DNA from: a virus
Lineage: Duplodnaviria; Caudoviricetes
Length of the DNA stretch: 57,569 nt
Reading direction: 5' to 3' (one strand)
IMG/VR virus record: IMGVR_UViG_3300029787_000051
Location: 1 to 57,569 of that record
Shown here: positions 989 to 57,569 of the stretch, one piece after another
Layout of the letters: each line of letters begins with the position of its first letter
How positions within the stretch are numbered: the first letter of the stretch is position 1
Position numbers and translations under genes: made by a program
Notes under the pieces: model-generated
The model's input: only the letters and a program-made list of their open reading frames with translations
What the model was told of the DNA's origin: nothing
The model's database searches: none

Positions 989-1053
989 TATATAGTGATA
1001 CTTAAATGAAATGAAAGTATCACGTATATACGTAAACTAGTCCAACGTTGGAC
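988..1053 (+). promoter_or_regulatory. Bulged long hairpin (988-1031) plus palindrome GTCCAACGTTGGAC (1040-1053)
   Basis: gtatata-gtgatactt / aagtatcac-G-tatatac, then gtaaacta and the palindrome; same layout as 55847-55911. Confidence 0.75.
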
Positions 1054-4064: not shown

Positions 4065-4957
4065 GGGCAGTTGCTGAACTTGTAGATGATTATCTTTTAT
4101 CCAGCAACTTCAACGCTTTACGTGACAGAACCAAGCAAGATTATCGCAGGTTTATTAGGCAAGCAATCTGCACAGAGGTAGAGGGCGTACTGCTACGGCA
4201 GCGTCCTCTTACCATGAGTGGCTGCAATGCCAAACGTCACTACGAAATGTGGCTAGATAGAGGTGTGCCTACAGCGAACCATATCTCATCTGTTATCAGG
4301 CTCATCTTCAACTATGGTATTGAGATGGGGTACTGCGATAGCAATCCATTCAAAGCCTTCAAGCGACAGGCTACACATACACGTACTGTAATGTGGGAAC
4401 CCGAAGATGTACGTAAGTTCCTTGATGCAGCGTACTCAAAGTTTCACTGGCGTAATGTAGGTATCATTGCCCATACTGCGTACGATTTGTGTCAACGTGT
4501 GGGTGACATGCGTATGCTTGAGTGGAGTTGGTTTGACTTTGATAAACACGTACTGCACTTACAGCAATCAAAGCGTAGGGCAGAGGTACACCTGCCTATC
4601 AACGATGAACTGTGGGACATGTTGCTACAGCAAGAGGTGGACTATGGCTTCCAGAAATACGTAGCACCGAAACCTAAGTCAGATGGTTGGGGGTTCAAGC
4701 CATACTCTGATCAGTATCTGTCAAGGGTAGCGCGTAAGATTATGCAGGAAGCAGAGCTACCAGATACACTACGTATATCCGACTTGCGTAGGACAGGTAC
4801 AGTTGAGATGGTCGAGGCTGGTGTTCCAATGGGACAGATCATGTCTGTTACAGGACACGCTAACCCACAAAGTGTTAAGCCTTACATGAAGGCTACGTAT
4901 ACGGCAGCTAATGCTGCGTTAACAACTAGAAGGTCCAACGTTGGACCAAAGGAGTAG
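4061..4957 (+). CDS. int: Tyrosine recombinase/integrase
   Basis: Catalytic pattern QRVGD (R), QSKR (K), SDLRRTG (R), TGH, KPY (Y). Confidence 0.9.
   Translation: MRAVAELVDDYLLSSNFNALRDRTKQDYRRFIRQAICTEVEGVLLRQRPLTMSGCNAKRHYEMWLDRGVPTANHISSVIRLIFNYGIEMGYCDSNPFKAFKRQATHTRTVMWEPEDVRKFLDAAYSKFHWRNVGIIAHTAYDLCQRVGDMRMLEWSWFDFDKHVLHLQQSKRRAEVHLPINDELWDMLLQQEVDYGFQKYVAPKPKSDGWGFKPYSDQYLSRVARKIMQEAELPDTLRISDLRRTGTVEMVEAGVPMGQIMSVTGHANPQSVKPYMKATYTAANAALTTRRSNVGPKE
4932..4947. promoter_or_regulatory. Perfect palindrome GGTCCAACGTTGGACC at the int 3' end, abutting the primase SD
   Basis: One of six copies of the motif. Confidence 0.75.
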
Positions 4958-5735: not shown

Positions 5736-6958
5736 TGGAACTATCCCTAATCAGAAGCCTCATGGACAAGCCTTTCTATGAGAATCATAGAGGAGCGCAA
5801 TGCCCAGATAAGCTGTTCTCCAAAGACGTAGGTAAGATCAAGCGTGTCATTGATGTTGCAATGTCTAGGTACAACAGAGATATTACACCCAACGAAGTTG
5901 AAGCATTGTTCTTTAGCAGCAACCCATCCCTAACTACAGCGCAGAAAGAAGACTATACATCTATCTTCAAGCGGGTACGTGCAGAGAAACCTATGGGTGA
6001 AGACGTTGCAGAGGAAGTGTTATCAAAACTATTCCAACAAGTTGTTGGCGAGGAGATTGCTAACATAGGCTTCGACTACGTGAACGGTTCACAGTCTACG
6101 CTTGAACCTTTGCGCAACTTGCTTGAGCAATACAGTGATGACTTCCTACCCAATGTCAATATCGAATGGGATGATATCACAGTTGACAACCTCTTAGCAC
6201 AGAATGATCTTGAAGCTAGGTGGACTTTCAATATACCTACACTTGCCAGCCGTGTTGCTGGTGTAAATGACGGGCATCTAATTGAGGTAGGCGCACGGCC
6301 CAACACTGGCAAGACATCCTTTCATGCATCTCTTGTTGCTGGACCTAATGGCTTTGCATGGCAAGGTGCTAAGTGTATGGTGCTATGCAACGAGGAAGCC
6401 TTCCATCGCGTAGGTGCTAGGTATCTTACGGCTGCATCAGGTATAACCTTGCAAGAGGTTGTGAAGAACAAAGATGCTGCCATTGAATTGTATGATCAAA
6501 TACGTGACAATATTCTAATGAAGGATATAACTGGGCGCGACATGTCTTGGGTTGAGACTGTAGTTAAGTCATATGAACCCGACATTGTTATCCTTGACAT
6601 GGGTGACAAGTTCGCAAACTTCTCCGCATATGCACGTACAGATGAAGCGTTGAAAGCTAACGCAATCTATGCTAGGATCATCGCCAAAGAGTATGGTTGT
6701 GCTATATTCTACATGTCTCAACTAAGTGCAGAGGCAGAGGGTAAGATCACATTGAACCAAGCAATGATGGAAGGATCACGTACTGGTAAGGCAGCGGAAG
6801 CTGACCTGATGGTACTGATAGCAAAGAACCCCTCTATTGAGGGGCAAGATGAAGAGGATCGCCAACGTCACCTTAACGTAGTTAAGAATAAGTTGACGGG
6901 TTGGCATGGTATTGTGCATTGCAATCTTGAATATGAAATAGCGAGGTACGTAGTATGA
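5735..6958 (+). CDS. Replicative DnaB-like (SF4) helicase
   Basis: GARPNTGKT Walker A, VILD Walker B, MSQLS, ADLM, KNK. Confidence 0.93.
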   Translation: MELSLIRSLMDKPFYENHRGAQCPDKLFSKDVGKIKRVIDVAMSRYNRDITPNEVEALFFSSNPSLTTAQKEDYTSIFKRVRAEKPMGEDVAEEVLSKLFQQVVGEEIANIGFDYVNGSQSTLEPLRNLLEQYSDDFLPNVNIEWDDITVDNLLAQNDLEARWTFNIPTLASRVAGVNDGHLIEVGARPNTGKTSFHASLVAGPNGFAWQGAKCMVLCNEEAFHRVGARYLTAASGITLQEVVKNKDAAIELYDQIRDNILMKDITGRDMSWVETVVKSYEPDIVILDMGDKFANFSAYARTDEALKANAIYARIIAKEYGCAIFYMSQLSAEAEGKITLNQAMMEGSRTGKAAEADLMVLIAKNPSIEGQDEEDRQRHLNVVKNKLTGWHGIVHCNLEYEIARYVV

Positions 6959-7659
6959 GTAAGAATGTTTTAATTCCTAAACGTGATGGAGAAAACTTCC
7001 AGTTCTTCACGCCATTCGGCCCTACTGTAGGGTATATGAAGTTAAGTGATGAACTTGTAGGCACACTTAATAGTTTAATTGACGACCATGATAGCGGCGG
7101 CAATATGATGCCTGACTATTCAGATCAGCTTGTCGGTAAAGTTGGAGAAGAACTTTTCATTGAAAAGAAAATTTTAACTGGTCCCATTGGTGAAGAGATA
7201 AAAGATTTTGTAGCAAACTGGTGGTTGTATTCTCGCTCAAGGCAAGAGCTTAAGCAAGTATCCTTTAAGGATGATACAGAATACATGATAGATATTCAAA
7301 GTGGCTGGATAGTTAGGCAGTACCAGCATGAGTATAATCCTATACATATTCACACAGGCTGTGAGTTTTCTTGCATTGGCTACTTAAAGATGCCAGATGA
7401 TATAGAAGATGAGTTCAAAAAGGATTGGGAAGATCATCATCCAACGCACGGCATGACTCAATTTGTTTTTGGCAATCAGCTTGGGCATGTAACTAATAAC
7501 TTTTTTATTAGGCCACAAGTTGGTGACTTCTACTTCTTTCCTGCATCACTACAACATATGGTATACCCATTCTATTGTGAAGGTGAGCGCAGAGCTTTCA
7601 GTCTTAATGTAAACTTTAACTCCAGAGAGAAGGAGATTGGGGATGAAGCTAGTACTTGA
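6955..7659 (+). CDS. 2OG-Fe(II) oxygenase-like protein (TIGR02466-type)
   Basis: EYNPIHIH, YFFPASLQHMVYPF, ERRAFSLN. Confidence 0.8.
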   Translation: MSKNVLIPKRDGENFQFFTPFGPTVGYMKLSDELVGTLNSLIDDHDSGGNMMPDYSDQLVGKVGEELFIEKKILTGPIGEEIKDFVANWWLYSRSRQELKQVSFKDDTEYMIDIQSGWIVRQYQHEYNPIHIHTGCEFSCIGYLKMPDDIEDEFKKDWEDHHPTHGMTQFVFGNQLGHVTNNFFIRPQVGDFYFFPASLQHMVYPFYCEGERRAFSLNVNFNSREKEIGDEAST

Positions 7660-9694
7660 CGTAGAGAATACCGTTACACATAGGGACGGTAAGCTACACC
7701 TTGATCCATTTGAGCGCGACAATCAGCTTGTTTTGGTTGGTGTGCTTGATGATCACGACAACGAATTTCAGTTTACGTTCCATCACAACGAAGCAGATGG
7801 ATCGTTGATACCATACGAGACAGAAACACTACAAGCTATGCTTGATGATACGGCTGTACTCATAGGTCACAACATTGCCCATGATCTTCTTTGGCTATGG
7901 GAGTGCGGCTTCACGTACGATGGTCCAGTGTTTGATACTATGCTTGCAGAATACATCATGCAATGCGGTGTCAAGCAACCGCTCTCGCTTGAGGCATGTG
8001 CTGAACGATACGAACTAGACACACAGAAGCAGGATACAATGAAGAAGTATCTCGCTGATGGTGTGTCAGTTGCTGACATTCCATATGAGGAACTGTCAAT
8101 GTATCTATCCGCTGACCTCAAAGCTACATACGAGCTATGTCAGGCGCAGCGTAAGCGTTTGCACAGTAATAAGTATAACTCGTTGTGGCCTACCGTTGAC
8201 CTAACCAATGAGGTATGCGTTACACTTGCACGTATCTACCAGCGTGGGTTTACAGTTGATCGTGATCGCCTTGCTTCTGTACGTGAGGAGTTTCTGCAAG
8301 AGCATACACAAATCAAGCGTAGCTTAGATCGCCAAGTCAAACATCTCATGGGTGATACACCTGTCAACCTCTCATCGCCAGAGCAATTGTCTCAACTCAT
8401 ATACAGCCGTGCGCCAAACGAGAAGTCTATGTGGCCTCTAAAGTTTCAGCCTTATGATTCGGCTGATAAGTTTCGCACAACTGTAAAGAAAAATTCATCT
8501 CTTGTTCACAAAACTGTAGCAAAGATGTGCAAAACTTGTAATGGTTACGGTAAGGTATTCAAGAAGAAGAAGGATGGTTCCAACTTCAAGAACCGTACCA
8601 AGTGTCCTGACTGTCTTGGTGCTGGTGTTATCTACAACAAAAGCAACACCGTTGCTGGCTTACGTTTGATTGCACCATCAGCCAAGTGGGTAACGGCAAA
8701 TGGTTTCAGTACAAACAAGATACATCTTGAGGTTCTTGAGAATGCAGCACGATCAAAGGGTCTGCCAGAGGCAGCAGAGTTTCTCTCTAATGTGCGTAGA
8801 CTATCTGCGCTAGAGACATACCTATCGTCCTTCATCGACGGCATTGAGACACATCTCAAGCCAGATGGTAAGCTACATGTACGTCTTACACAACACATGA
8901 CGGCTACAGGTAGGTTCAGTGGCCGTGACCCTAACATGCAGAACATGCCAAGAGGCGGCACGTTTCCCGTCAAGCGTGTGTTTGTATCTAGGTTTACGGG
9001 CGGTAAGATATTTGAGGCAGACTTTGCCCAACTAGAGTTTCGTACAGCAGCGTTTCTATCACAGGACGAGACTGCTATGAAAGAAGTAAAGGAAGGTTTT
9101 GATGTTCACAGTTACACTGCGAAAGTTATATCGGATGCTGGTCAACCTATATCACGGCAGGAAGCCAAGACGCATACGTTCGCTCCCCTATACGGAGCAA
9201 CGGGATTTGGGCGCACTAATTCTGAGGCAGCATATTACAAACACTTCAATGACAAATACAAAGGCGTGGCACAGTGGCATAAGCGGCTGGCTACGCAAGC
9301 TCTAAACGATAGGCGCATTAGTACACCATCAGGTAGGCAGTTTGCTTTCCCCCACGTGCAGCGTAGGGTCAACGGTACTGTCAGTCACTTTACACAGATC
9401 AAGAATTATCCTGTGCAATCATTTGCTACGGCTGATATTGTTCCCATTGCATTACTTGCTATCGAAGATGGGCTTAAGATTCACGATGCACAGTCTTGTA
9501 TTGTGAATACAGTACATGATTCAATTGTTATTGACATGCACCCCGATGAGTTTGAACTCGTTAAAGGTGTACTCAAACAGGTCGAACAGAATCTTGTAAC
9601 TATGATACAGCTACGATGGGGGATAGATTTCAACGTTCCGTTGTTACTTGACGCTAAAGTAGGTGATAATTGGATGGAAACAAAGGAGATATAA
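7643..9694 (+). CDS. polA: Family A DNA polymerase with 3'-5' exonuclease and DnaJ-type zinc-finger insert
   Basis: LDVE, HNIAHD, TATGRFS, EADFAQLEFR, RQEAKTHTFAPLYG (Phe762 type), TVHDS; CKTCNGYG and CPDCLGAG. Confidence 0.96.
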   Translation: MKLVLDVENTVTHRDGKLHLDPFERDNQLVLVGVLDDHDNEFQFTFHHNEADGSLIPYETETLQAMLDDTAVLIGHNIAHDLLWLWECGFTYDGPVFDTMLAEYIMQCGVKQPLSLEACAERYELDTQKQDTMKKYLADGVSVADIPYEELSMYLSADLKATYELCQAQRKRLHSNKYNSLWPTVDLTNEVCVTLARIYQRGFTVDRDRLASVREEFLQEHTQIKRSLDRQVKHLMGDTPVNLSSPEQLSQLIYSRAPNEKSMWPLKFQPYDSADKFRTTVKKNSSLVHKTVAKMCKTCNGYGKVFKKKKDGSNFKNRTKCPDCLGAGVIYNKSNTVAGLRLIAPSAKWVTANGFSTNKIHLEVLENAARSKGLPEAAEFLSNVRRLSALETYLSSFIDGIETHLKPDGKLHVRLTQHMTATGRFSGRDPNMQNMPRGGTFPVKRVFVSRFTGGKIFEADFAQLEFRTAAFLSQDETAMKEVKEGFDVHSYTAKVISDAGQPISRQEAKTHTFAPLYGATGFGRTNSEAAYYKHFNDKYKGVAQWHKRLATQALNDRRISTPSGRQFAFPHVQRRVNGTVSHFTQIKNYPVQSFATADIVPIALLAIEDGLKIHDAQSCIVNTVHDSIVIDMHPDEFELVKGVLKQVEQNLVTMIQLRWGIDFNVPLLLDAKVGDNWMETKEI

Positions 9695-9695
9695 T

Positions 9696-10697
9696 ATGAG
9701 ACTATCAATATTAAGTGGACTGTTTAGTCTATTAGTAGTAAATGTTACCCATGCAGCAGGAAGTGATCCAATTTCTACTGTAGGTTCATCTACTGTGTAT
9801 CCATTTGCCACTGTTGTAGCAGAGCGGTTTGGTAAACTAACTAAATTTCAAACTCCTGTTATCGAATCAACTGGAACAGGTGGTGGAATGAAATTATTTT
9901 GTAATGGTGTTGGTTATCAACATCCAGATATTACAAATGCAAGTAGGCCAATTAAGAAATCAGAAAAAGAAAAATGTAAATCAAATGGTGTAACTCCTGT
10001 AGAGATAAAAGTTGGTTATGATGGTATTGTTCTTGCAAACAGTAAAAAAGGTACAAAGCTATCTGTAACGACAGATCAACTCTATCGTGCAACAGCAAAA
10101 GAAGTTTGGGATGGCTCTAAGTTTATTATAAATCCCTATAAAAAGTGGAGTGACATTGATCCATCACTTCCAGATTTAGCTATTGAAGTTATGGGTCCAC
10201 CACCTACATCTGGTACGAGGGATGCCTATGTTGAATTAGTACAACATAAAGCCTGTAAGAAATTAGGTATCAAAAAGAAAGGTGATGACGGTTACAAAGC
10301 TAGGTGTAGTGCTGTACGTGAGGATGGTGGGTACATTGAAGGCGGTGAAAACGATAACTTGATTATTCAAAAACTTGTGGGAGAACCAAAACGATATGGT
10401 ATTTTTGGTTTTTCTTTTCTTGACAATAATCTAGATCAACTTTGGGGAACTGCCATTGACGGTGTAGAACCTACGTTTGAAGGTATTGCATCTGGTGATT
10501 ACCCTGTAAGTCGGGGGCTATTCTTCTATGTTAAAAAAGAGCATATTGGTATGGTTCCCGGATTAAGTGAATACGTAAGATTCTTTGCAAGTAAACAGAT
10601 GATTGGTGAAACAGGCGCAACTGTTGATAAAGGTCTTATTCCTTTACCAGATGATGAGTACAAAGCCTTAATCGAAAAGATTAATAAAAATCTTTAA
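9696..10697 (+). CDS. pstS: Phosphate ABC transporter substrate-binding protein (AMG)
   Basis: Signal peptide; GSSTVYPF, STGTGGG, NASRPIK, GYDGIV, SGTRD, YPVSRGLFFY. Confidence 0.93.
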   Translation: MRLSILSGLFSLLVVNVTHAAGSDPISTVGSSTVYPFATVVAERFGKLTKFQTPVIESTGTGGGMKLFCNGVGYQHPDITNASRPIKKSEKEKCKSNGVTPVEIKVGYDGIVLANSKKGTKLSVTTDQLYRATAKEVWDGSKFIINPYKKWSDIDPSLPDLAIEVMGPPPTSGTRDAYVELVQHKACKKLGIKKKGDDGYKARCSAVREDGGYIEGGENDNLIIQKLVGEPKRYGIFGFSFLDNNLDQLWGTAIDGVEPTFEGIASGDYPVSRGLFFYVKKEHIGMVPGLSEYVRFFASKQMIGETGATVDKGLIPLPDDEYKALIEKINKNL

Positions 10698-48345: not shown

Positions 48346-48542
48346 ATTTCTGGTGTATTCGATTTCTTGAACACCTTCTTATTATGAACAACATTGGGGA
48401 ATAGAAACGGTACAAATCCATGTATAACTATCTTAAAAAAGTATAGTACTGTCCAACCAGCTTCTTTCATAGACTGTATAAGATGCCCAACATAACCTAC
48501 ATTATGCTTAGACATATGTTCCATATCAAACCATTCTTTCAT
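48342..48542 (-). CDS. Small protein (DUF6356-like)
   Basis: H.....GY..H.....IHG.VPFLF. Confidence 0.6.
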   Translation of the reverse strand: MKEWFDMEHMSKHNVGYVGHLIQSMKEAGWTVLYFFKIVIHGFVPFLFPNVVHNKKVFKKSNTPEI

Positions 48543-48952
48543 TACTTACTCCTCTTCATATTTTCTCTGGATACGCCCTTCCATTTTTCCGCTGACCGCA
48601 TCCCACCTAATCCCAATAGGCTTAGAGTTAATGTCATTAATCCTTCTGTTGGAATTATTGGAATTGCTATGTCTGCACCAGAAACGGCTATAACCCATAC
48701 AAATACGGGTTGAAATACGTACTGCCAGCCAAGACCAAAAGCGCATATCCACATGATAGCTGGCCTCGACCCACTTACAAATAGTGAAGGGTGCTTGGCC
48801 TGTTCAATGTTTGCTTGAGCTTGCGCTAGGTCTAGACTGACAACCTGTTGTTTAAGTTCAGCCTCTAGTTTAGTCTTGAGGTCTTTGTCCTCTACAAATT
48901 TATCAAGGACTTTACCTGCAACTCCTACGATGCTATCTGCTAATCCTAACAT
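48542..48952 (-). CDS. Holin, GTA 3TM family
   Basis: LDKFVEDKD, SLFVSGSRPAI.W, LLGLGGMRS.EK.KGV. Confidence 0.88.
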   Translation of the reverse strand: MLGLADSIVGVAGKVLDKFVEDKDLKTKLEAELKQQVVSLDLAQAQANIEQAKHPSLFVSGSRPAIMWICAFGLGWQYVFQPVFVWVIAVSGADIAIPIIPTEGLMTLTLSLLGLGGMRSAEKWKGVSRENMKRSK

Positions 48953-48959
48953 ACTTTTC

Positions 48960-49247
48960 CTAACACTTCCATCTTTTTCTTGCCTGTCGTAAACGGCTAT
49001 TGGGATTTTTCGCTGCTTTTGGAAACTTCTTCATTTGCCCTGCGCTTCTCGCACAATAGCTTTTGCGTCTAGCTGCGCGTTTTCCTGTTGGCTTACTCTC
49101 TGTAACAGCGGTTCTTAATTTACTACCCGGATTATCTCTACGATACTTAGCCACACCTTTTGGTGTCATCCCCGCCCCTTTTTTAGTAGGACGTTTATGA
49201 CCACCTTTAATAGTATGGCCCTTCATTGTACCTTTACGTTTAGCCAT
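48960..49247 (-). CDS. Small basic protein (DUF6321-like)
   Basis: GMTPKGVAKYRRDNPGSKL...RRKSYCARS...WKC. Confidence 0.8.
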   Translation of the reverse strand: MAKRKGTMKGHTIKGGHKRPTKKGAGMTPKGVAKYRRDNPGSKLRTAVTESKPTGKRAARRKSYCARSAGQMKKFPKAAKNPNSRLRQARKRWKC

Positions 49248-53689: not shown

Positions 53690-53909
53690 TCTTAACTCCT
53701 TTGCGTTTGTAAGTATTAATTCCTTCAAGCTCCATTGCCTTCTCTATATGAGAAAGAGAATAGCGCACACCCGTATCTGCCTCAATCGCAGCACGGATAT
53801 ACATTACGGAACTATGGGGGATATGTACGGAACCTAATCTATCATTTACGATAGCAGAATAGAATTGTTCTAATAGATTGTCAGACTCCAGTTGTACTGA
53901 TTTTTTCAT
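53670..53909 (-). CDS. Hypothetical protein, first gene of the late arm
   Basis: Downstream of the tandem promoters; HIPHS..Y.RAAIEA..G. Confidence 0.7.
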   Translation of the reverse strand: MKKSVQLESDNLLEQFYSAIVNDRLGSVHIPHSSVMYIRAAIEADTGVRYSLSHIEKAMELEGINTYKRKGVKNAKSRR

Positions 53910-54001
53910 TATTGTCAACTTTTTCTACATATAAGTGACCATGTAAGTGTTTTTTAAAAAGGGTAAGTGATCACTTTAAGTGTAAGCATTAAGTCTTCTT
54001 A

Positions 54002-54044
54002 ATTATACGTATCTAATTATACGTGTCAATAGGTAAAGTGTCAA
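54002..54044 (-). promoter_or_regulatory. Two interleaved consensus sigma70 promoters for the structural arm
   Basis: TTGACA(54044-54039)-N17-TATAAT(54021-54016) and TTGACA(54029-54024)-N16-TATAAT(54007-54002). Confidence 0.85.
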
Positions 54045-54302
54045 ACCCTTTATTTTATATCCGCACTGTTGTATATATATCACAGATATGTGTGTGGTGT
54101 GACATACTTGCAACAGTAGTTATGTACGTTGTCTATGTAGTTAACACTTGATTTTACTGATCTGTGTATTTCTACATATATACGTACGTACTACGGGGGT
54201 GTGGCCCCTGCCTGCCCATGCCATGCGCTAGGCATAATGCGCCCGGATAGCGAGGCAAGCCGTTGTTCCAGCAGAATAAATCTTCGATTTAACAATGGCT
54301 TA

Positions 54303-54316
54303 GTCCAATGTTGGAC
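54303..54316. promoter_or_regulatory. Palindrome variant GTCCAATGTTGGAC
   Basis: 1 mismatch to consensus; flanked by two C-GAA-G mini-hairpins in opposite orientation. Confidence 0.7.
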
Positions 54317-54460
54317 CTGATGCATCGAAGATGCAAAGGATATGCTATCAGTTGTTCTCTGAACAAAGATTATGGATCACGATTTCTACAAAGTAGAGCA
54401 AATGCAAACGTTAGTGCATATCCTTTCATGTTCCATGAACCATACCCCACCCCTTAACAA

Positions 54461-54537
54461 TCATCATTCCTTTCTTTACGTAAGTTAATACCTGAGTTCT
54501 TACGAAGGTATATAACTTACTTGAAAGGAATAGATGA
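54461..54537 (+). promoter_or_regulatory. Long bulged hairpin with GAGTTCTTACGA cap; outer stem covers the SD of the next gene
   Basis: gtaagtta-atacct / aggtat-A-taacttac; attcctttc / gaaaggaat. Confidence 0.75.
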
Positions 54538-54538
54538 A

Positions 54539-54739
54539 ATGGCAACCTTTATCGTAACCAAATCCAATCTCACCGAAGGTGTATTCACCGACATCGAAGA
54601 TGTTGTAGACCACATTGGTTTACCAATAGATCGTGGCGAGTTCACCGCCTTTGGCGATCTTGAGTTCGGCAACGGTTACACCGTTACTGGTCCTACGAAC
54701 CTTCTTTTGGGTTCGGCAATGCGAGTCGATTATTCCTAA
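54539..54739 (+). CDS. Small hypothetical early protein
   Basis: AAGGA SD; ATG 54539. Confidence 0.7.
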   Translation: MATFIVTKSNLTEGVFTDIEDVVDHIGLPIDRGEFTAFGDLEFGNGYTVTGPTNLLLGSAMRVDYS

Positions 54740-54741
54740 CA

Positions 54742-54821
54742 TGGTTGTGAGTAACACCTTGAGTTCTTACGAAAGGTGTTCCTCACTAACCAACACCATT
54801 CAAACTGGTCCAACATTGGAC
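54742..54821 (+). promoter_or_regulatory. Long bulged hairpin with GAGTTCTTACGA cap plus palindrome variant GTCCAACATTGGAC (54808-54821)
   Basis: ggtt-gtgag-t-aacacctt / aaggtgtt-c-ctcac-T-aacc. Confidence 0.78.
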
Positions 54822-54845
54822 GTAACACAAATCGGAGATTTGAAA

Positions 54846-55511
54846 ATGGCTAAGACAACCAACGAACAGAACGAAGTTCTCAACACTCTTGAAGCACAAG
54901 GTGCCGAAATTGCAAAGCAATTCAAGAAAATGGATAGCAGAGATCGTCGTAACGTTACGAAGGATATGCCCCAATACTTGGAGCTTGGCAAACTGTTATC
55001 ACAGTTACGGGGCGAATCGGATGCTGGTCGGATAGCATCTAGCCGTCTGAAGGATTGTGGTATCCACAATATTGACAAGCGGCGTAGGAGCGAAGCTCTA
55101 TGGTTTGCTGATAATGAGAAGTCAGTTAATGACTTCAAGGATAAATCTCGTAAGGGATTCACCAGCATCACTGCTTTGCAGAAAGCATGGAAGGATGCCC
55201 AAGCTGCTGAGTCGGAGACTCAAGAGCCTGAGACTGAGGAAGTCACCGAAGGTGCTAACGAAGGTCTTGCTGAACCTACTGGTTCTGATGCAAACGCTAC
55301 ACCAGTACAGGTAGCGGAATCAGTTATTGCACTCTGCAATAAACATGGCATCGACCTCTCTGAAGTAACAGAGTTACTAATGGAACATGTCTCTGTCATC
55401 GAAGATGAATGCCCATTTGATCCACCATTCTCAATAGAGAATGTTGAGATCACTGGTCCGAAAGATGCGAAAGCATTCGCTAACATGTTCGCCAACAATG
55501 GTCCAATGTAA
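54846..55511 (+). CDS. Hypothetical early protein, 221 aa
   Basis: GGAG SD before ATG 54846; the upstream part of the track ORF overlaps regulatory hairpins. Confidence 0.85.
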   Translation: MAKTTNEQNEVLNTLEAQGAEIAKQFKKMDSRDRRNVTKDMPQYLELGKLLSQLRGESDAGRIASSRLKDCGIHNIDKRRRSEALWFADNEKSVNDFKDKSRKGFTSITALQKAWKDAQAAESETQEPETEEVTEGANEGLAEPTGSDANATPVQVAESVIALCNKHGIDLSEVTELLMEHVSVIEDECPFDPPFSIENVEITGPKDAKAFANMFANNGPM

Positions 55512-55513
55512 AG

Positions 55514-55636
55514 ATGTACATTGGTCGTAACTGGTCACAGCGCAAGGCATGGTTCATGCTTTGCGTTGTCGAACCCCTTGCATTTTCTAGCCTGATGGCT
55601 AGTATTGTTGTGTTCTTTTCTATAATCGGAGATTAA
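55514..55636 (+). CDS. Possible small membrane peptide, 40 aa
   Basis: Fills the gap; hydrophobic C-terminal half. Confidence 0.45.
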   Translation: MYIGRNWSQRKAWFMLCVVEPLAFSSLMASIVVFFSIIGD

Positions 55637-55638
55637 AA

Positions 55639-55863
55639 ATGACCTTGCTTGCTAGAGATATCCCTCGATCATTCACCTTGCGTGGCATAACAGGTCATGG
55701 CAAGAACCGCATAAGAGAACATGGTTCTGTATGGGTTGAGCAACCTTTAAGCATGTCATGGGACAATGGCATATTAGTTACAAGTGTAGAAACACTTGAT
55801 TCACGTTGGATCAAAGAGATAGACGATCCCAATTTCGAGATCGTTAGTGTAAGTGATAGCTGA
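55639..55863 (+). CDS. Hypothetical early protein
   Basis: GGAG SD; GKNRIREHG..W. Confidence 0.8.
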   Translation: MTLLARDIPRSFTLRGITGHGKNRIREHGSVWVEQPLSMSWDNGILVTSVETLDSRWIKEIDDPNFEIVSVSDS

Positions 55864-55911
55864 GTTCTTACGAAGCTATCACGTTACACGTAAACTGGTC
55901 CAACGTTGGAC
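55847..55911 (+). promoter_or_regulatory. Long bulged hairpin with GAGTTCTTACGA cap plus palindrome (55898-55911)
   Basis: gtgtaa-gtgatagct / agctatcac-G-ttacac, then gtaaactg and the palindrome. Confidence 0.8.
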
Positions 55912-55920
55912 TAACATTTT

Positions 55921-56011
55921 GGAAGGCACGGCTGGTGTATGTAATGTCCCTAGAACATTGCAGGTCTACTAGGGTAGGCTAACGCAGGGTTCAATTCCCT
56001 GCCCTTCCACC
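55921..56011 (+). ncRNA. Non-canonical tRNA-like RNA (CUA at anticodon position, long variable arm)
   Basis: GGAAGG/CCTTCC-A-CC acceptor; GCAGGG-TTCAATT-CCCTGC T arm; 8-bp arm with loop CCCTAGA; 7-bp variable arm. Confidence 0.7.
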
Positions 56012-56038
56012 TTAATACATTTTAACGGAGTTAATTAA

Positions 56039-56203
56039 ATGAAACGTTCAGTTCGCAAGGCAAGCAAACGCCGCAATGTCATGGCACATGCTTTGGAAAA
56101 CCGTGCGTTTCAACAACGTGTTGTCCAGCCTGACAAGGGCAAGGGCGCATTCAACAGGCAGAAGGAAAAGGCCAGTGTCAAAAAAGAAATCGACAACGTT
56201 TAA
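56039..56203 (+). CDS. arfA: ArfA-like alternative ribosome-rescue factor, 54 aa, not in ORF track
   Basis: NVMAHALENRAFQQRVVQPDKGKGAFNRQK matches ArfA N....L....FRQRV....KGKGSY.R; GGAG SD. Confidence 0.72.
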   Translation: MKRSVRKASKRRNVMAHALENRAFQQRVVQPDKGKGAFNRQKEKASVKKEIDNV

Positions 56204-56324
56204 CGTTAATCAGAAACGTCTTGACCGTAGTGATTACCGTATGCTACGAAAGGCACGTGATATGCAGCGCAAGAAATTGCGTAAAGCAAAACAGAAAATT
56301 CAATCGTTAACAATCGGAGCGTGA
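56175..56324 (+). CDS. Small basic protein
   Basis: GTG 56175 with AAGGA upstream; 3' part of track ORF 56076-56324. Confidence 0.55.
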   Translation: MSKKKSTTFNVNQKRLDRSDYRMLRKARDMQRKKLRKAKQKIQSLTIGA

Positions 56325-56325
56325 C

Positions 56326-56523
56326 ATGCAAGCTACCTATAAAAATCCTGCCATCGAATCACTGCTGACCAGTATCACTGGTCGTGATCGTGTCGCTACT
56401 GTTGCAAGCAACACTTGCGTAACATGTGACGGTGCTGCTGATACCTTCAAAGATGAGGGATCAAAGCGTGAGTATGCTATCTCTGGCATGTGCCAATCCT
56501 GTCAGGATAGCGTGTTTGGATAG
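56326..56523 (+). CDS. Small zinc-finger protein
   Basis: CVTC...F.DE.S.REY.ISGMCQSCQD.VF; GGAG SD. Confidence 0.8.
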   Translation: MQATYKNPAIESLLTSITGRDRVATVASNTCVTCDGAADTFKDEGSKREYAISGMCQSCQDSVFG

Positions 56524-56537
56524 GTCCAACGTTGGAC
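56524..56537. promoter_or_regulatory. Palindrome GTCCAACGTTGGAC
   Basis: Directly after a TAG stop, upstream of the next SD. Confidence 0.75.
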
Positions 56538-56561
56538 TAACACTTTAACGGAGTTAATCTT

Positions 56562-56837
56562 ATGGCTACTGAAATGAATAACGTAGTTGTTACCCATAGA
56601 GGGTGGACTATTAGTATCACTGACCACATTGGCTTTGGTATACATGGTCCTGATTGCAAGACACGTGAGATCGGTATCTGGAATACTGCTGATAGCCATT
56701 CCGAAATTGATGTTGTCGTATATCATTACGGTGATAGTGCGAAGCAATTGGTACATGCAATTCGCTACGCTCAATGGCAAATCGACAAGACTCTTTTCAA
56801 GAGTTGGATCAAATCAACATTCAAGTTTGGAGCCTGA
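56562..56837 (+). CDS. Hypothetical protein
   Basis: GGAG SD. Confidence 0.75.
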   Translation: MATEMNNVVVTHRGWTISITDHIGFGIHGPDCKTREIGIWNTADSHSEIDVVVYHYGDSAKQLVHAIRYAQWQIDKTLFKSWIKSTFKFGA

Positions 56838-56840
56838 CCT

Positions 56841-57470
56841 ATGCCTAAATCCCCAGTACATATCAGCAAGATGACAGGCAAGCTGGATAGCTTGCGGTCT
56901 ATCAGTACCAACACCGTGACCAACAAGTTTTGCAATGACATGCACAACGCAAAGGCTGAGACTATATGCAAAGTGTGCTACTCTCACGCTATGCTCAATG
57001 GCTTTCGTAAGAATTGCCAAGCATCATTGCAACGCAATAGCGATTTGCTTTCCAAGCAAGTGCTATCGGTTGATGAGTTACCCGTTATCAAAGATAAGGT
57101 GTTCCGTTTCAATGCTCACGGTGAGCTACTCAACATGCGGCACCTACTTAATCTCATTGCCATCGTGCGGCACAATCCTGACACGCTGTTCACGTTGTGG
57201 ACTAAGCGCAAGGATTTGATTAACCGCCTGTTCAAGTATGAGCTATCGGAGAAACCCGATAACATGATACTGATCTTCTCTAACCCGAAGGTTAGTAACA
57301 TCATCCCCGAACATAAAATGCCAAAGCATTTTGACAAGACGTTCAACAACGTGCTTGAGCATGAGGCTGTGCCGTATCAGAACTGCACGGGACAACAATG
57401 CAAGGATTGCCTGTTGTGCTACACTCACGGGACCACTCCAACTATCGTTGAAAAGGTAAAGGCATATTGA
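56841..57470 (+). CDS. Gp88-like Cys-rich (Fe-S/Zn) phage protein
   Basis: C...ICKVCYS, FRFNAHGEL, LWTKR, C....C..C..CY. Confidence 0.7.
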   Translation: MPKSPVHISKMTGKLDSLRSISTNTVTNKFCNDMHNAKAETICKVCYSHAMLNGFRKNCQASLQRNSDLLSKQVLSVDELPVIKDKVFRFNAHGELLNMRHLLNLIAIVRHNPDTLFTLWTKRKDLINRLFKYELSEKPDNMILIFSNPKVSNIIPEHKMPKHFDKTFNNVLEHEAVPYQNCTGQQCKDCLLCYTHGTTPTIVEKVKAY

Positions 57471-57569
57471 TATGAAAAGAATTGTCCATGTTAATCAACA
57501 TGTTATCAAAGCTAACCGTAGGTATTACGAGGAAAAGCCCCCGCTTACTTGTAAGACCTACAAGGATAC
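57438..57569. repeat. Right copy of the 132-bp end overlap
   Basis: Matches 1-132 with 5 mismatches. Confidence 0.95.

What the first reader, a model, noticed from the sequence alone, without database searches (positions are those of the whole stretch)
54461..55911. Repeated intergenic module: bulged long hairpin with invariant tandem-GA cap, then the palindrome
Seen: three hairpins (54480-54520, 54742-54792, 55847-55889) have different 14-19-bp stems but the identical cap T-GAGTTCTTACGA-A. The cap can fold as T-A, G.A, A.G, G-C, T-A with a TCTT loop, which works on the + strand only. A fourth (988-1031) has a variant cap. Each has one unpaired base on the 3' arm. Three start at or over a stop codon and are followed by AAACT(A/G) plus the palindrome; the other sequesters an SD. 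Stem covariation within one genome shows that structure is selected. Inference: RNase III-type processing sites as in the T7 early region, antitermination or protein-binding RNA elements, or attC-like folded-ssDNA recombination sites bounding small gene cassettes in a genome that encodes a tyrosine recombinase.
Basis: partly seen in the sequence, partly recalled or inferred. Interest (0 to 1): 0.82.

Follow-up and report, generated by a model that had tools for sequence, protein, structure and literature searches.

The report
Invariant-capped hairpins punctuating phage early genes
Three long hairpins between the small early genes of this marine phage carry exactly the same 14-base tip, the same tip sits on unrelated stems in several unrelated uncultured marine phage lineages, and it is an undescribed gene-punctuation signal whose reader is still unknown.

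Summary
Three bulged hairpins (54480-54520, 54742-54792, 55847-55889) carry the identical cap TGAGTTCTTACGAA; a fourth (988-1031) has another cap. The window is a complete HMO-2011-type marine podovirus. The capped hairpin is a widespread, undescribed family. Of the unique 14-mer matches in viral contigs, 27 of 110 (TGAG cap) and 14 of 102 (TAAG variant) sit on long, unrelated stems, against 0 of 212 in a shuffled control. Copies occur in at least five phage lineages, 1-6 per record, always intergenic and sense to arrays of 40-80 aa early genes. There is no Rfam match and no paper holds the sequence string. None of 10 cultured relatives whose whole genome I searched carries it.

The most likely reading is an RNA-level punctuation element (a processing, stability or insulation hairpin) read through its cap by an unknown, probably host, factor. 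It also marks the edges where early gene cassettes are exchanged, as with the PeSLs (promoter-early stem-loops) of T4-type phages. An attC-like origin is rejected: only 1 of 9 hairpin genomes has a tyrosine recombinase. The palindrome is a separate element, absent from most hairpin genomes. Hairpin 4 belongs to a second cap class with a nested sigma-70-like promoter. No RNA data exist, so the mechanism is inferred.

The parts
54471..54530 (+). Hairpin 1 (class 1). Core stem 54480-54520, cap TGAGTTCTTACGAA 54493-54506, bulged A on the 3' arm. The outer CUUUC/GAAAG pairing covers the SD of the gene that starts at 54539.
   Evidence: 39.0 bits
54742..54792 (+). Hairpin 2 (class 1). Cap 54760-54773. 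It starts 2 nt after stop TAA 54737-54739 and has one 1x1 mismatch and one 3' bulge.
   Evidence: 45.0 bits
55847..55889 (+). Hairpin 3 (class 1). Cap 55861-55874, whose TGA is the stop of ORF 55639-55863. Bulged G on the 3' arm. The stem and 3' flank are homologous to hairpin 4.
   Evidence: 39.5 bits
988..1031 (+). Hairpin 4 (class-2-like). Its 11-nt loop is AAATGAAATGA. It is the syntenic counterpart of long hairpins in CRP-1 (979-1040), CRP-345 (803-871) and HMO-2011 (1192-1254), whose loops hold TTGATA with TATAAC 17 nt downstream.
54802..54821 (.). AAACTG linker plus palindrome GTCCAACATTGGAC. The ATG at 54846 lies 38 nt after the palindrome start.
55892..55911 (.). AAACTG linker plus palindrome GTCCAACGTTGGAC, followed by the tRNA-like structure.
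1034..1053 (.). AAACTA linker plus palindrome GTCCAACGTTGGAC. The ATG at 1078 lies 38 nt after the palindrome start.
54303..54316 (.). Palindrome copy (GTCCAATGTTGGAC) with no hairpin before it, at the head of the + strand gene block.
56524..56537 (.). Palindrome copy without a hairpin, directly after stop TAG 56521-56523. The ATG at 56562 lies 38 nt after its start.
4933..4946 (.). Palindrome copy inside the 3' end of the integrase gene, 26 nt before the primase ATG (4959).

Best explanation
The three hairpins belong to a widespread, undescribed family of long (about 20 bp plus cap), imperfect hairpins. They fold on the sense strand and punctuate the host-RNA-polymerase-transcribed early operons of marine podoviruses that lack a polymerase of their own.

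I read them as RNA elements, in three steps:
1. The stem gives an irregular double-stranded RNA of about two helical turns. It ends the upstream cistron's message: a 3' stability hairpin, a substrate for a double-strand-specific endonuclease such as host RNase III, or both. It frees or exposes the Shine-Dalgarno sequence that follows within a few bases.
2. The invariant cap U-GAGUUCUUACGA-A is the recognition site of a conserved trans-acting factor. Because the same cap serves unrelated phage lineages that share no detectable protein, that factor is probably host-encoded.
3. Because every copy shares the cap, and within a lineage also the lower stem, the hairpins act as linkers at which early gene cassettes are swapped by ordinary homologous recombination.

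Shown: the family, its anatomy, its orientation and position, and cassette breakpoints at the hairpins. Inferred: that it acts as RNA, that it is cut or bound, and who reads the cap.

The GTCCAACGTTGGAC palindrome is a separate 5'-leader element, either a small hairpin or an operator, of one HMO-2011 subgroup.
For: - Family: 27 of 110 (TGAG) and 14 of 102 (TAAG) unique 14-mer matches in viral contigs are long hairpins on unrelated stems, against 0 of 212 in a shuffled control. Three of 5 matches to an 18-mer in MAG contigs are hairpins too.
- Structure: in an alignment of 27 hairpins, 87.9% of cells pair against 56.4% shuffled, and 12 of 15 pairs change on both sides. The rows were chosen for pairing next to the cap.
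- Copy number: 47 hits in 25 of 25 records, 1-6 per record, clustered on one strand.
- Position: intergenic. The upstream stop is typically 0-25 nt before, or inside, the modelled 38 nt. The next start is typically 20-50 nt after.
- Orientation: an SD plus start lies 10-90 nt downstream in 36 of 45 in sense and 10 of 45 in antisense.
- Sense-strand folding: G.T 13 against A.C 5 in stems. The sense MFE is lower in 41 of 51. One U5.G10 wobble occurs in a cap variant.
- The cap tolerates a one-base insertion (TGAAG in 4 hairpins, TGAGG in 1) and loop shortening. This fits an RNA tip better than a duplex DNA site.
- Not intrinsic terminators: a T-run follows 1 of 45.
- No phage-encoded candidate reader: RNase III 0 of 9, sigma-70 region 2 above cut-off 0 of 9, and no protein cluster common to all seven whole or large hairpin genomes.
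- The carriers are unrelated lineages. A TerL like the window's is found in only 3 of 17 records. Twelve records share another TerL, about 40% identical to pelagiphages HTVC027P and HTVC023P.
- Cassette exchange: L156 4392-4574 and L161 6373-6526 are non-homologous between two conserved hairpins. L156 4830-5511 matches a segment of L153 that is bounded by hairpins on both sides. 27 of 425 HSP ends lie within 40 nt of a hairpin, against 13.4 +/- 3.7 at random, maximum 25 in 1000.
Against: - No RNA evidence at all: no RNA run holds the region.
- The G.T over A.C excess is small (13 against 5).
- The reverse strand folds nearly as well.
- Pairing inside the cap is not supported by covariation. 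The double variant C4-G11 is a hairpin in 1 of 100 matches, the single C4 in 1 of 107 and the single G11 in 0 of 89. The cap is conserved as sequence, which a DNA-binding protein could also explain.
- RNase III is not known to need a specific apical loop, so the cap remains unexplained by that enzyme.
- The first hairpin of each array stands at the head of the operon with no gene upstream. That fits a leader or promoter element as well as gene-end punctuation.
- HSP ends are not independent: each pair is counted in both directions, and most HSPs lie in the conserved terminase and portal genes.
- The six closest cultured relatives lack the element, so it is dispensable for this phage type.
Confidence: 0.45

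Rival explanations
1. A nested promoter-plus-terminator cassette, that is, a true PeSL. The cap would be a DNA box read at initiation by a non-sigma-70 holoenzyme or an activator. The stem would only terminate or insulate upstream transcription.
For: - The second cap class shows exactly this design. TGATACTTTAGTGAA lies in long hairpins in 41 of 80 unique matches. TTGATA (33 of 40) or CTGATA (7 of 40) sits in the cap. A -10-like hexamer of at least 4 of 6 lies at 16-18 nt in 29 of 40, against 18.2 +/- 3.4 shuffled, maximum 27 of 200.
- The + strand block 53800-57569 has no sigma-70-like site of 9 of 12 or better, while the - strand has two perfect 12 of 12 sites.
- First hairpins stand at operon heads. 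In two lineages TTGACA or TTGACG lies upstream with a -10-like hexamer in the 5' arm.
- PeSL stem-loops may lie between or over the promoter boxes (PMC2839356, passages read).
Against: - Class 1 has a poor -35 (GTGAGT, GTAAGT or CTGAGT).
- It shows no clear -10 enrichment: 16 of 41 against 10.7 +/- 2.5, maximum 18, and 9 of the 16 are GATGAT.
- Internal hairpins lack the upstream TTGACA.
- The SD follows the stem within a few bases, leaving almost no leader.
- No sigma-70-family gene above cut-off in 0 of 9 genomes.
- One-base insertions in the cap are tolerated.
Confidence: 0.2
2. A processive antitermination or polymerase-modifying RNA, in the manner of lambda nut or HK022 put. The cap would load a factor onto, or act directly on, host RNA polymerase so that it reads through the long early and replication operon.
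For: - The first copy lies in the leader of the early operon. In L155, L154 and L160 it lies about 206-213 nt downstream of a TTGCCA-17-TATAAT or TATACT promoter.
- No RNA polymerase of the phage's own was detected (PF00940 0 of 9, but the control was silent).
- The cap is invariant across lineages.
Against: - Up to 6 copies per array, one after almost every small gene. This is unlike the one site per operon of nut and put (recalled).
- No boxA-like partner motif was seen in the flanks.
- The stems are far longer than boxB (recalled).
- Nothing could be tested directly.
Confidence: 0.1
3. attC-like folded single-strand DNA recombination sites, or another hairpin-specific recombinase target, that mobilise cassettes.
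For: - Cassette-like arrays.
- Strand-specific orientation.
- Unpaired bases in the stems.
- Breakpoints at hairpins.
- An integrase in the window.
Against: - PF00589 occurs in 1 of 9 hairpin genomes, and in none of the six other genomes at least 97% complete. The control rang in 14 of 14 genomes.
- The conserved part is the loop. Stem bases share no boxes; invariant columns occur only in the cap.
- The window's integrase matches phage integrase families.
- The positions of the unpaired bases vary: the first defect lies 6-12 pairs from the cap.
Confidence: 0.03
4. A decoy or anti-defence RNA. The hairpin tip would mimic a host RNA and soak up a host nuclease or sensor.
For: - It lies in early, hypervariable regions full of small orphan genes.
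- The invariant tip is shared by unrelated phages of what may be one host pool. The window and G021 share a holin at 83% and a neighbouring protein at 90% identity.
Against: - No similarity to any Rfam family, including tRNA, tmRNA and CRISPR repeats.
- The strict gene-end and gene-start placement is not needed for a decoy.
Confidence: 0.05

Closest known systems
RNase III processing sites of the coliphage T7/T3 early region (R0.3-R1.3).
   Same: Intercistronic hairpins in an early polycistronic message made by the host polymerase of a podovirus. The stem is about two helical turns, interrupted by an internal loop or bulge, mostly on the 3' side here (3' arm 23, 5' arm 15). Several sites lie in a row between small early genes.
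   Different: T7 sites are not defined by a shared apical loop. Here a 14-nt tip is invariant across unrelated phages while the stems vary freely. Cleavage is untested.
PeSLs (promoter-early stem-loops) of T4-type phages RB49 and phi1 (Arbiol et al. 2010, PMC2839356; passages read).
   Same: [quoted passage not shown] They flank small orphan genes in a hyperplastic early region, and gene replacement occurs between neighbouring copies.
   Different: PeSLs are defined by a strong sigma-70 promoter and are conserved over about 100 bp. Class-1 hairpins show no sigma-70 promoter, and only the cap is conserved between lineages. Hairpin 4 and the class-2 hairpins are much closer to a true PeSL.
Integron attC sites.
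   Same: Imperfect hairpins with unpaired bases, one orientation, bounding small cassettes.
   Different: attC keeps its conserved boxes at the stem base and has a variable loop (recalled). Here it is the reverse. No integron-type or any tyrosine recombinase in 8 of 9 carriers.
Lambda nut (boxB) and HK022 put antitermination RNAs. Recalled.
   Same: A sense-strand RNA hairpin with a sequence-specific tip in the leader of early operons of phages that depend on the host polymerase.
   Different: There are many copies per operon, stems of 20 bp and more, and no boxA. No N-like protein was identified.
Bacillus phage SP82 early-mRNA processing sites. Recalled only.
   Same: Repeated processing hairpins in a phage early message that share sequence as well as structure.
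   Different: A different host and enzyme. No sequence relation was tested.

Membership tests
T7-type RNase III processing site | Intercistronic position on the sense strand of an early polycistronic unit | tested here: met
   Position and orientation, (SD plus start downstream in 36 of 45 sense, 10 of 45 antisense)
T7-type RNase III processing site | Irregular duplex of about 20 bp or more with an internal loop or bulge | tested here: met
   Median of 20 aligned stem positions (range 17-33); 50 non-transition mismatches and 38 bulges in 41 hairpins
T7-type RNase III processing site | Cleavage by RNase III | not testable with these tools
   No RNA run holds the region. No phage RNase III, 0 of 9, so the enzyme would have to be the host's.
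PeSL (promoter-early stem-loop) cassette | Sigma-70-like early promoter inside the cassette | tested here: not met
   Class 1: poor -35, -10-like hexamer in 16 of 41 against 10.7 +/- 2.5 shuffled. Class 2 and hairpin 4: 29 of 40 against 18.2 +/- 3.4, so the feature is met there.
PeSL (promoter-early stem-loop) cassette | Stem-loop between the upstream stop and the downstream SD and ATG, next to small orphan genes | tested here: met
PeSL (promoter-early stem-loop) cassette | Gene shuffling by exchange between copies | tested here: met
   Replacement bounded by two hairpins (L156 against L161). 27 of 425 HSP ends near hairpins against 13.4 +/- 3.7. Mini-circles not testable.
Integron attC | Conserved inverse core and core boxes at the stem base, with a variable loop | tested here: not met
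   Invariant columns occur only in the cap; stem bases are unrelated
Integron attC | Cognate tyrosine recombinase in the same element | tested here: not met
   PF00589 in 1 of 9 hairpin genomes; control rang in 14 of 14
Intrinsic (Rho-independent) terminator | Hairpin followed directly by a U-tract | tested here: not met
   T-rich window after 1 of 45 hairpins. None of the terminator-like sites coincides with a capped hairpin.
N4-type hairpin promoter | Stem of 5-7 bp with a 3-nt loop, read by a virion RNA polymerase (features recalled) | tested here: not met
   Stems of 17-33 positions and a 12-14 nt cap. PF00940 0 of 9, but the control was silent, so absence of a polymerase is inconclusive.
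Any Rfam 15 family | Score at or above the family's gathering threshold | tested here: not met
   0 matches at gathering over the whole window. In 53900-57569 the best sub-threshold hits are RT-9 on the reverse strand (28.9 against 46.1 bits) and mir-85 (24.1 against 68).

The most novel reading that the evidence does not exclude
The invariant cap is the docking site of a conserved bacterial factor, for example a loop-reading double-strand RNA endonuclease or an RNA-binding protein that measures from the tip as yeast Rnt1p does. No such factor is yet known to read RNA tips in marine bacteria. Several unrelated, abundant marine phage lineages would have converged on it, or traded it, to cut and stabilise their early messages. 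The motif would then be both a new RNA class and a marker of a shared host dependency.
Probability: 0.25. Interest if true: 0.8.

Novelty: new variant of a known kind. Interest (0 to 1): 0.62.

Why it matters
HMO-2011-type phages and podoviruses distantly related to pelagiphages are widespread in marine samples, and almost nothing is known about how they express their early genes without a polymerase of their own. A 14-base RNA tip kept letter for letter across unrelated lineages, on stems that change freely, points to one trans-acting reader.

The element also gives three practical gains:
- a covariance model that finds early, probably anti-defence, gene arrays in viromes;
- the boundaries at which those cassettes are exchanged;
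- a possible marker for phages that share a host pool.

The related class-2 hairpin is present in cultured phages (CRP-1, CRP-345, HMO-2011), so part of the question is testable at the bench now.

Tried and rejected
- RNA evidence: no RNA holder was listed for 53900-57500. Contigs of four DNA runs were laid. They gave no joints and no ends, and contig breaks did not line up with the hairpins. This says nothing about expression.
- Cultured carriers. A model search through the genome search on 18 cultured relatives found nothing, but its first look scored 0 candidates, so it counts for little. A full cmsearch of the six closest genomes (CRP-1, -345, -603, -2, -207 and HMO-2011) found 0 hits at E up to 5. 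A 10-mer pattern search of HTVC027P, HTVC023P, 023Pt_psg01 and DSL-LC04 found one match, which is not a hairpin. A model search of about 19 kb around their TerL found nothing below E 0.33.
- Shared protein reader: blastp clustering found no family common to all seven whole or large hairpin genomes. This is a weak test for small, fast-evolving proteins.
- Covariation inside the cap: three variant scans gave 1 of 100, 1 of 107 and 0 of 89 hairpins, so there is no support either way.
- Host through the tRNA-like 3' end: its 26-mer has no exact match in 185,579 species genomes.
- My impression that the window's leader resembles that of the G021-type phages was not borne out by blastn. It matches only CRP-345, CRP-1 and HMO-2011.
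- Literature: no paper in the library holds the cap or palindrome strings. The five hits are unrelated papers (HNF4alpha and Listeria monocytogenes typing) judged from the listing only. A word search on HMO-2011 with hairpin or promoter terms returned only generic papers.
- Hammerhead-like reading of UGA-stem-GAA: rejected by eye. There is no three-way junction and no CUGA or cleavage-site strand.
- The observation that the cap always begins with a stop triplet (TGA, TAA, or TAG in one class) was noted. The upstream ORF uses it in only a few cases (gap -15 or -12), so I treat it as coincidence.
Full report
**What the window is.** The 57,569-base window is a whole IMG/VR virus record rated 100% complete. 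Its last 132 bases repeat its first 132 (127 of 132 identical). PHROG and Pfam scans show two gene blocks.
- The + strand block runs from about 54,300 across the end of the record to about 16,900. It holds small unknown genes, then an integrase, primase, DnaB-like helicase, family A DNA polymerase, Cas4-like exonuclease, endonuclease and ribonucleotide reductase.
- The - strand block (16,892-53,918) holds virion, packaging and lysis genes.

The large terminase is 83% identical to Roseobacter phage CRP-1 and 79% to Puniceispirillum phage HMO-2011. The window is therefore an HMO-2011-type podovirus. No RNA polymerase was detected (PF00940 0 of 9, but that search had no positive control).

**The observation.** It holds as written. 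GAGTTCTTACGA occurs exactly three times, all on +, each enclosed by a 14-19 bp imperfect stem. The folds are far better than shuffles (z -4.2, -6.1, -5.1; 0 of 200 shuffles as good). The fourth hairpin (988-1031) folds equally well (z -4.9) with a different 11-nt loop. The unpaired 3'-arm bases, the stop codons at or inside the hairpins, the SD-covering extension of hairpin 1 and the AAACT(G/A)-palindrome that follows three of the four are all there. The palindrome has six copies (0 of 100 shuffles reach six), all inside the + strand block. One correction: hairpins 3 and 4 share stem sequence, so they are not independent examples of covariation.

**The family.** I scored the flanks with an arm aligner that treats G.T and A.C alike.

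| Cap scanned | Long hairpins / unique matches |
|---|---|
| TGAGTTCTTACGAA | 27 of 110 |
| TAAGTTCTTACGAA (natural variant) | 14 of 102 |
| Control, 3' flank shuffled | 0 of 212 |

The scores are bimodal and the stems are unrelated between lineages. In an alignment of 27 hairpins, 87.9% of cells pair (56.4% when shuffled) and 12 of 15 pairs change on both sides. Those rows were picked for pairing next to the cap, so this describes the stems and does not prove structure.

A covariance model (R1) finds only the three known copies in the window (next best 14.6 bits, E 0.65). In 25 of 25 carrier records it finds 47 hits, 1-6 per record, clustered and co-oriented. Three of 5 exact matches to an 18-mer in species genomes are the same hairpin, on MAG contigs labelled Pseudomonadota, Dehalococcoidia and Rhodospirillaceae. 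Binning makes these weak host hints.

**Anatomy.**
- Stems have a median of 20 aligned positions beyond the cap (range 17-33).
- Their defects are mostly true mismatches (T.T 13, A.G 11, A.A 10) or single bulges (3' arm 23, 5' arm 15). G.T outnumbers A.C 13 to 5.
- The sense strand folds better in 41 of 51.
- Cap variants seen in hairpin context: G2 to A (common); an extra A or G after GA (4 and 1 hairpins); loop UCUU shortened to UCU; closing U-A changed to A-U together with an extra loop base (4 cases); one U5.G10; one C4-G11 double change; and one uncompensated C4.
- Directed scans for the 4/11 variants found only those same two hairpins (1 of 100, 1 of 107, 0 of 89).

The cap is therefore conserved as sequence.

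**Context.** Hairpins are intergenic. The upstream stop lies typically 0-25 nt before the modelled 38 nt, or inside it. The next start lies typically 20-50 nt after. An SD plus start codon follows in 36 of 45 in sense orientation against 10 of 45 in antisense. A T-run follows in 1 of 45, so these are not intrinsic terminators. They form arrays such as hairpin-gene-hairpin-gene-hairpin (L156, L169). The first hairpin of an array stands at the head of the operon with no gene upstream.

**Who carries it.** Only 3 of 17 carrier records tested have a terminase like the window's. Twelve share a different terminase whose nearest cultured relatives are pelagiphages HTVC027P and HTVC023P at about 40%. 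The complete genome G021 of that group is again a polymerase-less podovirus with T7-like replication genes. Further carriers of 65-107 kb and 35-54% GC have neither terminase.

The window shares a holin at 83% and a neighbouring protein at 90% identity with G021, which suggests a common host pool and gene traffic. The six closest cultured HMO-2011-type genomes lack the element, and so do four cultured HTVC023P-type phages. Within the HMO-2011 type it is therefore an accessory feature.

No protein cluster is common to all carriers. Family searches on nine carrier genomes gave:

| Pfam family | Genomes with a match above cut-off |
|---|---|
| RNase III (PF14622) | 0 of 9 |
| Sigma-70 region 2 (PF04542) | 0 of 9 |
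| Tyrosine recombinase (PF00589) | 1 of 9 (the window) |

**Cassette boundaries.** Between G016 and G020 (86% identical around it) one gene is replaced by an unrelated one exactly between two conserved hairpins (L156 4392-4574 against L161 6373-6526). Another homologous segment (L156 4830-5511, matching L153 6891-7557) is bounded by hairpins on both sides. Overall 27 of 425 HSP ends lie within 40 nt of a hairpin centre, against 13.4 +/- 3.7 at random (maximum 25 in 1000). The ends are not independent. This is the behaviour described for the PeSLs of T4-type phages (PMC2839356, passages read). Earlier notes of this scan pointed me to that paper.

**Hairpin 4 and the palindrome.** Hairpin 4 is the syntenic counterpart of long hairpins in CRP-1, CRP-345 and HMO-2011. 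CRP-1 and HMO-2011 have the identical loop GATACTTTAGTGA on quite different stems. That second cap (TGATACTTTAGTGAA) is itself a family: 41 of 80 unique matches are long hairpins. It carries TTGATA or CTGATA in the cap and a -10-like hexamer, most often TATAAC, at 16-18 nt (at least 4 of 6 in 29 of 40, against 18.2 +/- 3.4 shuffled). This is a PeSL-like nested promoter. TATAAC fits the alphaproteobacterial -10 consensus as I recall it. The same test on class 1 is negative (16 of 41 against 10.7 +/- 2.5, with a poor -35).

Seventeen of the 41 class-2 hairpins are followed by GTCCAAYRTTGGAC. Others are followed by variants such as GTCCGACAGCGGAC that keep the small stem. The palindrome is present in the window, CRP-1 and CRP-345 (6 each at up to 2 mismatches). 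It is absent from HMO-2011, CRP-207 and all six other class-1 carrier genomes examined. It also lies inside ORFs. In the window its start lies 38 nt before the ATG in three of six copies. It is thus an independent leader element, either a 5'-UTR hairpin or an operator, and I cannot tell which. The 'module' is a frequent juxtaposition, not a unit.

**Mechanism.** The weight of evidence favours an RNA-level punctuation hairpin. The points in favour are sense orientation, slight G.T excess, tolerance of bulged insertions in the cap, placement from stop codon to SD, no U-tract, no promoter signature, and carriers that must make long operons with the host polymerase. The architecture matches what I recall of T7 early RNase III sites. 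What is new, and unexplained by RNase III, is the invariant tip shared by unrelated phages. I infer a conserved, probably host, reader.

The main rival is a nested initiation box, as in class 2. It is supported by the head-of-operon copies and by the absence of sigma-70-like promoters on the + strand, against two perfect ones on the - strand. Antitermination and decoy roles cannot be excluded. attC-like recombination is rejected.

Nothing in Rfam 15 matches and no paper in the library holds the sequences. No RNA data exist for the region, so every functional statement is inference.

Noticed in passing
window 56039-56203 (+): A 54-aa ORF matches Pfam ArfA (alternative ribosome-rescue factor A, PF03889) at E 4.5e-7, 29.7 bits, above the 25.5 cut-off. 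All six weak PDB hits are ArfA chains (E 0.35-0.73), sharing F-QRV...KGKG. A 40% identical homologue is in carrier G025. An overlapping 82-aa ORF (56076-56324) competes for the coding call.
   Followed up: partly
window 55920-56012 (+): A tRNA-like fold just upstream of the ArfA-like gene. It has a 6-bp acceptor-like stem, a good T arm (CAGGG TTCAATT CCCTG), a long extra arm, and an 8-bp stem with loop CCCUAGA (CUA in the anticodon position). ARAGORN does not call it, and Rfam gives only a T-arm fragment (11-18 bits). Its 26-mer 3' end has no exact match in the species genomes. It could be an attP remnant, a degenerate or suppressor-like tRNA, or a tRNA mimic.
   Followed up: partly
window 57438-57569 and 1-132: The two ends of the record are a 132-base direct repeat with 5 differences. 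This fits a circularly closed assembly of a slightly mixed population, or a terminal repeat, although the record is classed as having no end repeats.
   Followed up: partly
window 54002-54044 (-): Two overlapping perfect sigma-70 consensus promoters (TTGACA-17-TATAAT and TTGACA-16-TATAAT) face the - strand genes. No site of 9 of 12 or better faces the + strand block in 53800-57569.
   Followed up: partly
window 54128-54214: A non-coding stretch 77-79% identical to CRP-345, CRP-1 and HMO-2011. In two marine metagenome runs the bin 54142-54262 is covered at roughly 10-20 times the depth of its neighbours, by many contigs with unlike flanks. It is a conserved leader or promoter element of the whole phage type, function unknown. 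A G+C-rich segment at about 54196-54265 follows.
   Followed up: partly
window 48542-49247 (-): The holin (83%) and the adjacent 95-aa protein (90%) are nearly identical to those of the unrelated phage genome G021, while the rest of the genome is not. This looks like recent exchange of a lysis cassette between lineages, probably within one host pool.
   Followed up: no
relatives: CRP-1 2228, CRP-345 2132, many IMG/VR loci: The 14-bp palindrome is kept letter for letter inside a small basic ORF (M(R/Q)Y(E/M)M(Q/K)NFIK...), where it encodes SNVGQ about 50 nt from the start. The surrounding codons diverge. Selection therefore acts on the nucleic acid, not the protein.
   Followed up: no
window 55500-55527 and 53965-53976: Two further palindromes: GGTCCAATGTAAAGATGTACATTGGTCG over the stop of the 221-aa gene (it looks like a stretched relative of the 14-bp palindrome), and AAGTGATCACTT in the divergent control region. 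CRP-1 and CRP-345 have TGTGATCACA just before their first palindrome copy.
   Followed up: no
window 9663-10697 (+): A periplasmic phosphate-binding-protein-like gene (PBP_like_2, E 2.3e-44) sits between the DNA polymerase and the next replication-block genes. A 2OG-Fe(II) oxygenase gene lies at 6955-7659. Both are ordinary marine-phage auxiliary genes.
   Followed up: no
L155, L154, L160 (G021-type leaders): About 206-213 nt upstream of the first capped hairpin lies a TTGCCA-17-TATAAT or TATACT promoter. It is followed at once by a GGGGGG...CCCC stem with a T-run, and then by a conserved TGTCACCCCCTGTTTATATATATAC block. This looks like a leader with an attenuator.
   Followed up: no
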